Assembly (NCBI GenBank): GCA_030141605.1
Contig: JAQGDQ010000344.1
Location: 186,001-250,000 of the forward strand
Direction: 5' to 3'
DNA length: 64,000 nt
From: Tubiluchus corallicola
Taxonomy: Eukaryota > Animalia > Priapulida
Position 1 is the stretch's first letter. Every line of letters begins with the position of its first letter. Position numbers and translations under genes: made by a program. Below the pieces are notes generated by a model that saw nothing but the letters and a program-made list of their open reading frames with translations, had not been told where the DNA came from and did no database searches. Positions 12,701-15,700 of this stretch are shown in pieces.

Positions 12701-15700
12701 CGCTTACTTCCAAGGTGGTTTTGATTATTGTTATTCGCGTGCTACTTCTGTAAAGCTGAGTGCTTCGCCAAATTATGTCCATAGAAATTGAGTTCATATA
12801 ACTGCAGTACCGTTTTCTAAAGCTTTGGTTTATGACTCGGTCCGGAAGTCCGAGACCTCCCAGGTGGAAAGCGAGCAGGCTACCGTTGAGCTATACAATG
12901 TGACACTAACAATTTAGTTATATAAACTCAATTTCTATCAACACGTATTCATATTTTCATTTTATTGCTTGATTAGCCATTGGTCTTGCTTGGAGGATTT
13001 GTTTAAACAGAGCTAAGATGTTTTTATCACAAGCAAAGGCGATATTATAGAATTTAACCAATTTATCGTGGTATGTCAGTTGCTTACGAAGAATACTGCT
13101 GCACGTTTAGAACACTTAAAGTGAATGGTCGTTAGAGCACATGCTTTTTCTTCCATTTCAGATGCTGACACTGTAAAAGCTATTTATGAGGCAAAGGCTG
13201 ACTACGACGAATTTACATGCGTCAAATGGGTGGAGAGAACCACTGAAGCCAGTTATATCTACTTCACTGATGGCGGAGGGTAAAGTTTAATTTCCTTTAA
13301 TAGACTCATTGGACGAGTTACAGAATTACAGTTTTAATGAAATCATTTGTGGAATAAACGTGTTTATTGAGCGACGATCGTTTCGGCTATTGAAGCCATT
13401 GTCTAACTGTAAATCGTCGCTCAATAAACATATTGATTCCTTGTAGCTGACTCCTTTGTGTATTTAATGGACTTCAGCGCCGCCAAGACTTTCGATTCTA
13501 CAATGACACTCTGAAATACCGGAAGTGTGTACTACGTGTCGCCTTCTTGAAGGAATGTTTAACTAACCATTAAATTTGTACCCAAAAATTTTGCATTTTA
13601 AAGTACCTACCGATGGTTGCTTCGACTAGAAAAGCGTCTTGGTTTGACTTGATTTATAGTTTGATAATGGCTTCAGTAGCCGAAACGATCGTCGCTCAAT
13701 AAACATGTTGATTCCTAGCAGCTGGCTTTCTCGTGTATTTGTGGAATGATCTCTTTTAGAACGTTTATAGAATCGTTTTAGCGAATCATTTACAGAACAT
13801 ATTCTTTAGTAGAACTTTTGTTAGCGCGGCTCTTGTAGAGTGATAAAATCATTAAATAGAATGCCACTGGTCCTCGCTAGACTATTCACAGATAAGTCAT
13901 TCATTTGTTTCATTAGTCTTAAGTCAGGCCATTTACACAATAGTTTTAGATGGACCATGCGTTAGTTCGGGGGAGCCCAAGGCTCAAAAAATTAGTTTGT
14001 TTCGCTCAGGCTGGTAACCAGTTTTTACCTATATCAGATGATAGAAAAGACCTTAGTGCTACTGCCTGGGTGGCGCTGTATTGGGGTTGCCACCACTCCT
14101 GATTTGGCCCGGAGTCTCCTGAAATTCAGCCAGATTCGCAGTTCGTACGGATTTTTGAAGAATTCCGAAATCTCCTGATTTCGACGATTACATTGAAATT
14201 TAAGTGGGGAAAAAACAGAAATAGATCTTGCATGCTATTGGTACTTTAAGTAAAAAAAAAATTAAGCAAAAAAGAACAGCCGAGTCTCTGTTATTACTAA
14301 CGTAGTAAACTTGTTGAATTAAATTTAATCGGTTGCATGGCTTTATCATTTCACCCATCTACATTTTTCGCCAATTTTTGCTGTAGCGGCAAACGGGACT
14401 TTTTTGGAGTCTAAAAGCAAGTAGTTTAATTTCTGAAAAATATCTCTGTCGAGGGACCCACTGGGGGAGCTTACAGACCCTTAGTTAACTCTTGCCTCCT
14501 GACTTCGGTTCATGACGGGTTGACTACTCTATGCTGTATAGAAAGTTTGGTATGGTCTTCAAAGTTAACCATAGAACAGCGAGTTCTCGAATGAACAAGC
14601 AAGCAAGTGCAAGCTTTATATGTTCAAATTCAGGTCATCATTCTTGATTAGTGAACTTCTTTTAAGGCACTTTTACCCTGCTATGGAGCACTTCCATTAC
14701 TCTTCGCACAAAAATGGCCGTCCATTTCTAATAATATGCGTACATCCCATATGAGGCAAATGTAAAGGGGTCATTTCAAAAAAAAAAGAATTGTCGAACA
14801 TTCCATTAAAGTCAAATTAAACTCTCATCACAATAGAAGCTTTTACTACTTAAAATCCTACTCTCAATACGATCGTTCAGTTTATTTTCTTATAATCTTT
14901 CTGTAAAACTTGTTTCTTTTGATTTTTCATGACTTTGTTGTTAGCGGTATTAAATTTGAAGAACCGCCATTTTTCGTTATACGAAACGAACGACGAATTA
15001 CGCTTTCTCTACTACGTACGTCATTCTCATTCACTTGCGCCAAAGACGCGAAACATGGCGACCTTTATGGCAAACCACGTGTTCGAAATTCGTCAGAAAG
15101 AGACAGGTTATTTAATTTATAAGTCTCTTTTGTTTAATAATAATTATGAATTCTTTGTGTAATCATAATAATGCGTTAAAAAAACTTCTATGTCTGTTGG
15201 GGTTAATATAGGTATTTAATACTGAGTCGCTCATTAATTAAAATACTAATAATAATTTCTTGCAGTTGTTGGTCTTACGTGGGCTATATCGGTTATGGCG
15301 CTCAAAATATTTCACTGGGACCAGGATGTGAGGTTAAAAGAATCGCTATTCACGAAATGATGCATGCTGCTGGATTCTACCACACACAGAATCGCTATGA
15401 CAGAGATTTGCATGTCACTTTTCATCCAGAGAACTGTTATCCAGGTACGACCACTTTTACTACCTAATAATATAATGCAAAATAAATTAAACAATTAAAC
15501 AAAACGCATGTCTTTATCATCATCATCATCATCATCATCATCATCATCATCATCATCATCATCGTCATCATCATCATCATCATCATCATCACTGTCGTCG
15601 TCGTCATCATCTTCATCATCATCATTGCCATCAGCAGTATTGCCAATCTCAACACCGTCAGCTTCTGCGTTTTTTAAAAACAAAGGTAACCGAGATTATT

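What the first reader, a model, noticed from the sequence alone, without database searches (positions are those of the whole stretch)
13345..13747. TSD-flanked retrozyme/Penelope-type insertion carrying a compensatory U3-A8 hammerhead ribozyme in the sense strand of the astacin pre-mRNA
Seen: an 11-bp TSD (ATTTGTGGAAT); an inverted 5' fragment joined through ATC microhomology; and a 275-nt unit whose repeat begins a few nt before the predicted GUC cleavage site. The motif at 13658-13696 has core UUGAUAA..GAAA, GGCU/AGCC stem II, palindromic ACGAUCGU stem III and downstream AAUAAA. Both copies share U3 and A8. Established: positions 3 and 8 pair in the active hammerhead, and U3-A8 is a known rarer alternative to C3-G8. 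Minimal type I hammerheads with palindromic stem III mark Penelope pLTRs and non-LTR retrozymes, cleave best as dimers and can yield small circular RNAs. Inference: a ribozyme-carrying mobile RNA family with a variant core, with possible co-transcriptional cleavage of the host intron.
Basis: partly seen in the sequence, partly recalled or inferred. Interest (0 to 1): 0.8.

Follow-up and report, generated by a model that had tools for sequence, protein, structure and literature searches.

The report
Penelope retrotransposon stub with muffled hammerhead
This 400-base insertion in an intron of an astacin protease gene is likely a broken remnant of a Penelope-type jumping gene, a known kind; it carries an already described hammerhead-ribozyme variant, and an inverted copy just upstream is predicted to pair with the ribozyme and keep it from cutting the host RNA.

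Summary
The sequence features are real: an 11-bp target-site duplication (13 bp on a second haplotype), an inverted 65-nt arm, a 53-nt direct repeat 275 nt apart, and a minimal type I hammerhead with U3-A8, sense in an astacin intron. U3-A8 is the family majority: in 101-384 laid contigs per run no core position varies in 15% or more of depth, and depth suggests hundreds of copies. The 275-nt 'retrozyme unit' is not supported. Its interior is at single-locus depth, other copies have different DNA upstream of 13643, and only one complete sense hammerhead exists. The interior behaves like the decayed start of a reading frame. The layout (inverted pLTR, direct pLTR stub, shortened body, pLTR with a ~30-nt tail, TSD) matches published Penelope-like elements, and U3-A8 is already described in them. 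The RT/endonuclease gene was not seen, so membership is inferred. In the pre-mRNA the inverted arm is predicted to pair with the whole ribozyme, so host-intron cleavage is unlikely. This scan has noted the same kind of thing in other genomes. Ordinary; one oddity is that the two direct repeats differ in apparent age.

The parts
13162..13279 (+). astacin exon upstream of the host intron
   Evidence: AG/GT boundaries and in-frame join with the next exon; Pfam Astacin E 0.016, below the curated cut-off
13280..15265 (+). host intron (GT-AG, phase 2) that holds the insertion in sense
13345..13355 (.). left target-site duplication (13345-13357 if the 13-bp form of haplotype 2 is ancestral)
13351..13415 (-). 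inverted, 5'-truncated pLTR copy without tail; hammerhead with U3, A8 but U4 changed to A; antisense to the pre-mRNA
   Evidence: 91% complementary to 13651-13715; core numbering
13413..13465 (+). direct pLTR stub: last 6 nt up to the cleavage site, AAUAAA and the tail-homologous start of the inferred ORF, decayed (ATG to ATA, one TGA)
   Evidence: 8 of 53 differences from 13688-13740; translation
13466..13642 (+). likely decayed 5' part of the element's ORF, in frame with the tail ATG; stop at 13571; 13574-13633 at single-locus depth
   Evidence: 9 of 9 changed codons against an X5 paralogue are silent or conservative in this frame; no database hit; depth
13643..13710 (+). 3' pLTR end shared by the many-copy family; family sequence upstream of 13643 differs (AT- and pyrimidine-rich), so 13642/13643 is a deletion or template-switch junction
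   Evidence: loose ends before 13643 in 31, 43 and 19 contigs of X1, X2, X3
13658..13696 (+). minimal type I hammerhead motif, U3-A8 core, palindromic stem III, predicted cut after 13693
13711..13740 (+). optional ~30-nt tail; with 13705-13710 it reads as 12 open codons from an ATG
   Evidence: family 3' ends cluster at 13707-13711 and at 13739-13740; translation
13737..13747 (.). right target-site duplication
15266..15444 (+). astacin exon with the HExxHxxGxxH zinc motif
   Evidence: Pfam Astacin E 2.4e-19

Best explanation
This is likely a dead, internally shortened insertion of a many-copy Penelope-like retrotransposon (PLE) family whose pLTR hammerhead has the U3-A8 core, and this copy is predicted not to cut the astacin pre-mRNA. 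Shown: TSD, inverted arm, direct repeat, the many-copy 13643-13740 end with two classes of 3' end about 30 nt apart, the family-wide U3-A8 core, and the single-locus interior. Inferred: a PLE reverse transcriptase/GIY-YIG endonuclease made staggered nicks and started cDNA at the tail end (13740). About 98 nt in, the product joins the first ~210 nt of an already decayed copy's ORF, by template switch or microhomology deletion, so most of the ORF is missing. A second, tail-less pLTR copy was laid down inverted at the 5' end and joined through ATC. In the source element the hammerhead would act as a dimer or with protein help on tandem pLTRs. At this locus there is one sense hammerhead, and the antisense arm transcribed 240 nt earlier is predicted to zip it and the AAUAAA into a 65-bp hairpin that is spliced out with the intron.
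For: Layout matches published PLE insertions: two direct plus one overlapping inverted pLTR, 8-10-bp TSD, 31-bp tail that continues the ORF start, and a copy with inverted pLTRs, 10-bp TSD, internal microhomology deletion and stop codon (PMC3846280); tail on one end only (bioRxiv 2021.04.23.441226). Family ends cluster at 13707-13711 and 13739-13740. Summed contig depth over the hammerhead is about 200-850 times that of nearby single-locus bins in three runs. Only 1 of 39 hammerhead positions (loop II, 13676, 31-35%) varies at 15% or more. Interior: 9 of 9 changed codons silent or conservative in the ATG frame vs 3-5 of 9 in the other five frames; 0.0012 of 20,000 random placements do as well. 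U3-A8 minimal hammerheads and opposite-strand pairs 100-700 bp apart are described for PLEs (PMC4209133). Folding: arm-hammerhead duplex -101.7 kcal/mol, stems I-III probability 0.000 in 13300-13800; 94-96% paired to the arm already at nascent lengths 13681-13715.
Against: No RT or GIY-YIG sequence was seen: no genome is held and the 40-aa interior peptide had no hit in three searches. The codon test uses only the 10 of 16 differences that one search printed, from one contig. The family majority comes from contigs at least 80% alike to this copy, so more distant C3-G8 relatives would be missed. The two direct repeats differ in distance from the family majority (8 of 53 vs 1 of 98, Fisher p 0.001), which a simple one-template insertion does not explain. 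Folding is equilibrium prediction only; no cleavage data.
Confidence: 0.8

Rival explanations
1. It is one copy of a 275-nt non-LTR retrozyme family that is transcribed, self-cleaves into monomers and circles, and re-inserts with PLE enzymes.
For: Size in the retrozyme range, TSD over 4 bp, unit starts 6 nt before the cut site, type I hammerhead. Retrozymes are proposed to be non-autonomous PLE derivatives (bioRxiv 2026.07.22.740005). A few paralogous contigs cover 13474-13571.
Against: 13574-13633 is at one-locus depth in X1 and X2, and the only 'goes back' joint comes from this locus's own contig. Family copies have other DNA upstream of 13643. Only one complete sense hammerhead, so no unit can be cut out here. 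One circular template would give identical repeats, yet they differ at 8 of 53. The unit as a circle folds no better than shuffles (z -1.1), whereas described retrozyme circles are highly self-paired and carry canonical hammerheads.
Confidence: 0.07
2. The locus is a composite of two events: an old decayed PLE insertion (inverted arm, stub, ORF start) whose 3' end was later replaced or topped by a younger family member through gene conversion or re-insertion.
For: 13643-13740 is about 1% from the family majority while 13413-13465 is 15% and the arm about 7-9% from it; the arm carries the alternative loop II letter found in 31-35% of family depth.
Against: One TSD of 11-13 bp flanks the whole composite intact; template switching in one insertion gives the same asymmetry.
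Confidence: 0.1
3. The insertion has been kept because the ribozyme or its AAUAAA regulates astacin by cutting or terminating the nascent transcript.
For: Sense orientation, intact core, AAUAAA, present on both haplotypes of sample S1.
Against: Predicted full pairing to the upstream arm; weak stems I and III even without the arm (P 0.03 or less); no partner for a dimer; a monomeric S. mansoni minimal hammerhead showed no cleavage and the Anolis one needed PLE protein; the interior differs by 6 substitutions and 2 indels between haplotypes.
Confidence: 0.03

Closest known systems
Minimal type I hammerheads of metazoan PLEs, including the U3-A8 variant of Schistosoma mansoni (Cervera and de la Pena 2014, PMC4209133; parts 1-2 of 4 and supplement passages read)
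   Same: U3-A8 core, extra nucleotide between A9 and G10.1, G10.1-C11.1, short stem I, palindromic stem III, U-rich upstream and AU-rich downstream, mostly solo copies, opposite-strand pairs within 100-700 bp
   Different: Stem II is 4-5 bp, shorter than the 7-8 bp of most S. mansoni motifs; an 8-nt palindrome in stem III as in insect and rotifer PLEs; a different, unnamed animal host
C-terminal EN+ Penelope insertions such as Adineta vaga Pen2a/Pen2 (Arkhipova et al. 2013, PMC3846280; part 2 of 5 and passages read)
   Same: Inverted pLTR overlapping a direct pLTR, tail of about 30 nt that continues the ORF start, TSD of about 10 bp, internal deletion and stop codon in a derivative
   Different: Here nearly the whole ORF is gone and both pLTR copies at the 5' end are much shorter; clade (Penelope/Poseidon, Neptune, Nematis, Hydra) could not be set without the RT
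Animal non-LTR retrozymes (Cervera and de la Pena 2020, PMC7229834, part 2 and passages; Li et al. 2026, bioRxiv 10.64898/2026.07.22.740005, part 1 and passages)
   Same: Unit size 170-400 nt, type I hammerhead, long TSD, probable mobilisation by PLE enzymes
   Different: No tandem or multi-copy unit, minimal rather than canonical hammerhead, only one complete sense motif, no unusually stable circle fold, interior looks protein-coding

Membership tests
Penelope-like element | ORF with telomerase-like RT and GIY-YIG endonuclease | tested here: inconclusive
   Only a decayed 5' frame is present; coding-type substitution pattern but no homologue found; no genome to find a full copy
Penelope-like element | pLTRs in direct and inverted orientation | tested here: met
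Penelope-like element | optional 30-40-bp tail on one end only | tested here: met
   family ends at 13707-11 and 13739-40; tail on the 3' copy, absent on the inverted copy
Penelope-like element | variable-length TSD | tested here: met
   11-13 bp; no empty allele was seen to confirm it
Penelope-like element | many 5'-truncated copies with a minimal hammerhead in the pLTR | tested here: met
   depth falls from hundreds-fold at the hammerhead to single-locus in the interior
Non-LTR retrozyme | at least two consecutive units each with a complete hammerhead, or a multi-copy unit | tested here: not met
   one complete sense motif; interior at single-locus depth
Non-LTR retrozyme | canonical type I hammerhead with stem I/II loop contacts | tested here: not met
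   3-bp stem I, minimal type; no Rfam hammerhead hit
Non-LTR retrozyme | highly self-paired, expressed circular RNA | tested here: inconclusive
   fold z -1.1; expression could not be tested
Hammerhead ribozyme (minimal type I) | conserved core with 3-8 pair, stem II, GAAA, NUH | tested here: met
   all positions present and conserved in the family
Hammerhead ribozyme (minimal type I) | self-cleavage after position 17 | not testable with these tools
   needs an in vitro assay

The most novel reading that the evidence does not exclude
The insert is a snapshot of a retrozyme being born from a PLE: one jump fused the ORF's first ~210 nt (in the Anolis PLE the first 172 nt carry the protein-binding and RT-start signals) to the 3' hammerhead, making a 275-nt mini-element that keeps every cis signal for mobilisation in trans, built from two templates of different age.
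Probability: 0.12. Interest if true: 0.45.

Novelty: new member of a known kind. Interest (0 to 1): 0.15.

Why it matters
As it most likely stands it matters little: one more PLE family with the published U3-A8 minimal hammerhead, and one inert intronic copy. It gives a natural, family-wide U3-A8 motif for the untested question of how well such minimal variants cleave as dimers. If the mini-element reading held, it would show a concrete route (internal deletion or template switch) from PLE to retrozyme; the 2026 preprint argues for a PLE origin by phylogeny, and the word 'deletion' does not occur in its main text.

Tried and rejected
No genome is held, so the family was studied through Logan contigs of coded runs; X1 and X2 are one sample and may be the source of the assembly. 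No RNA holder was listed. Run X6, only guessed to be RNA, had 5 contigs laid on the stretch, none 95% alike or better; no statement on expression is drawn. Rfam: no hammerhead, 3 of 3 hits unrelated. Metagenome pattern scan: 21 of 21 loci lack a hammerhead core and look like chance bacterial matches. Prokaryote-genome scan, 2 loci, and viral scan, 4 loci: no BLAST similarity to the element at E 1. Interior peptide P0001: 0 hits in phmmer over 1.84 billion representatives, no candidate in the word-index search of longer proteins, ESM Atlas only unnamed clusters under 0.9, Pfam only DUF1935 at E 0.04. No other copy of the element in the window. An empty allele was looked for and not seen (no joint across the insert among 15 of 20 joints shown). 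X3 covers the right junction with too few element letters to count as bridging, and lacks cover in parts of the interior; nothing is drawn from that. Monomer folding gives no significant stability (z 0.0 and -0.4), as expected for minimal hammerheads. Look-alike search in other scanned genomes: 0. Supplements of the bioRxiv preprints were not seen; file 1 of the PMC4209133 supplement was not searchable.

Full report
Observation. The TSD (11 of 11), the inverted arm (13351-13415 vs 13651-13715, 91%), the ATC overlap and the direct repeat (13413-13465 vs 13688-13740, 85%, spacing 275) are all present. The motif at 13658-13696 has every core position of a type I hammerhead with U3 (13661) and A8 (13666), an extra U before G10.1, a 4-bp stem II, GAAA, an 8-nt palindrome and C17 at 13693. 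A strict pattern occurs once in the window and never in 200 shuffles. The inverted copy keeps U3 and A8 but has A at position 4, and the first direct repeat starts after the core, so the locus has one complete hammerhead on the + strand. The host is an astacin gene on +: exons 13162-13279 and 15266-15444 join in frame across a GT-AG intron.

Family evidence. No genome is held. I laid Logan contigs from coded DNA runs on the region. In one search, 357, 384 and 101 contigs of X1, X2 and X3 were laid on 13466-13810 (X1 and X2 are one sample). Summed depth is 6135, 81333 and 1894 at the hammerhead, against 8-14 (X1) and 96-202 (X2) at 13574-13633 and 8.9 (X3) on the right flank: about 200 to 850-fold. 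The tool warns that this is no copy number; I read it only as hundreds of copies. The table of letters differing in 15% or more of depth had 13 rows and was not cut; within 13658-13696 only 13676 (loop II) appears, at 31-35%. So U3, A8, stem II, GAAA, the palindrome and the 3-bp stem I are the family majority, not decay of this copy. This holds for contigs at least 80% alike; more distant subfamilies are not covered.

The 275-nt unit is not a family. The interior 13574-13633 is at the depth of one locus. Many contigs (31, 43, 19) match from 13643 onward but carry other, AT- and pyrimidine-rich DNA upstream, so 13642/13643 is a junction not seen in other copies. Family 3' ends fall in two classes, 13707-13711 (X1 11, 13, 8 contigs; X2 10, 11, 9) and 13739-13740 (X1 11, X2 14, X3 4 and 4); that table was cut, 205 rows not shown. 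The 3' copy here ends at the long class and the inverted copy at the short class. This is the PLE tail, described as a 30-40-bp extension usually on one end only (bioRxiv 2021.04.23.441226, passages) and explained by two RT start sites (PMC11167929, parts 1-2 of 4).

The interior looks like a decayed ORF start. The tail reads as 12 open codons from an ATG at 13705; in the first repeat the ATG is ATA and one codon is TGA; the same frame runs open from 13451 to 13570. Against a paralogous X5 contig, the 10 differences that one search printed (of 16) touch 9 codons, all silent (3) or conservative (6) in this frame, against 3-5 of 9 in the other five frames; 0.0012 of 20,000 random placements match that. 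From memory, the peptide resembles the N-terminus of PLE proteins; this is recalled, and three searches found no homologue. In Adineta Pen2a the pLTR and tail likewise encode the first 22 residues of the ORF (PMC3846280).

Age and asymmetry. Both haplotypes of sample S1 carry the insert: one contig differs by 6 substitutions and 2 indels over 13466-13688, another joins tail to right flank with A at 13748, which makes the TSD 13 bp. The 3' copy differs from the family majority at 1 of 98 positions, the first repeat from the 3' copy at 8 of 53 (Fisher p 0.001; arm 4 of 58, p 0.06). A single circular template would have given identical repeats. A template switch onto a decayed transcript, or later replacement of the 3' end, would explain it; I cannot tell these apart. 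Both ends also show 4-5 nt shared between target and element.

Function at this locus. In 13300-13800 folded as RNA, nearly all of 13655-13715 pairs with the inverted arm (duplex -101.7 kcal/mol) and the hammerhead stems have probability 0.000. At nascent lengths from 13681 on, 94-96% of the motif is already paired to the arm. Without the arm, stems I and III are still at 0.03 or less. A monomeric S. mansoni minimal hammerhead showed no cleavage and dimers little (PMC4209133); the Anolis PLE hammerhead cleaved only with PLE protein and was not needed for insertion in vitro. Cleavage or polyadenylation of the astacin intron is therefore unlikely, though untested.

What is known. U3-A8 covariation is reported in natural hammerheads and as active in vitro (PMC3088659, passages) and in about 1,300 S. 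mansoni PLE-type motifs, along with opposite-strand pairs 100-700 bp apart (PMC4209133). A search for 'U3-A8' with 'hammerhead' found only that paper. An Adineta Penelope derivative with inverted pLTRs, 10-bp TSD, internal microhomology deletion and stop codon is described. Retrozymes are defined by tandem or multi-copy units with complete hammerheads, which this fails. Earlier notes of this scan list similar U3-A8 PLE stubs in other genomes, including ones judged muffled by an inverted twin; I had computed the pairing before reading them and count them as no evidence.

Verdict. A real, ordinary PLE remnant: it works like, and likely is, a PLE insertion, with the RT/EN gene not seen. New member of a known kind; interest 0.15.

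Noticed in passing
window 9888-10027: A second foldback with a different, canonical C3-G8 minimal hammerhead: 55-nt arms, 89% complementary, 30 nt apart, each followed by AATAAA; the + copy has GAAA changed to GATA, the - copy has C3 changed to G. Likely a stub of another PLE family.
   Followed up: partly
window 13643-13660: Family sequence upstream of the hammerhead is a pyrimidine-rich tract ending in TAG at 13657-13659, on the 5' strand of stem I. It resembles the intron acceptor that overlaps helix I in D. virilis Penelope; splicing would change stem I. Not tested.
   Followed up: no
window 13973-14040, 14084-14240, 14308-14440: Other many-copy repeats in the same intron, with 34-nt 'goes back' joints at 14117 to 14084.
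   Followed up: no
window 20900-44100: Segmental duplications with paralogous astacin, fibrinogen-like and PAN/apple-like exons; 38490-40240 and 40240-41990 are 99.7% identical, either a very recent tandem duplication or an assembly artefact (domain names from reading the peptides, not from a scan).
   Followed up: no
window 45149-46321 (-): Intronless 390-aa ORF that looks like an alpha-1,2-fucosyltransferase (glycosyltransferase 11; label recalled, not scanned).
   Followed up: no
window 62760-63971 (+): Frameshifted start of a LINE-like element: ORF1-like frame followed by an AP-endonuclease fragment (Pfam Exo_endo_phos E 3.5e-05).
   Followed up: partly
L024-L027 (e.g. L025 2812-2852): Four related phage contigs carry a U3-A8-like core, 3-bp stem II and GAAA antisense to a gene; may be chance or a phage hammerhead variant; unrelated to this element.
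   Followed up: no
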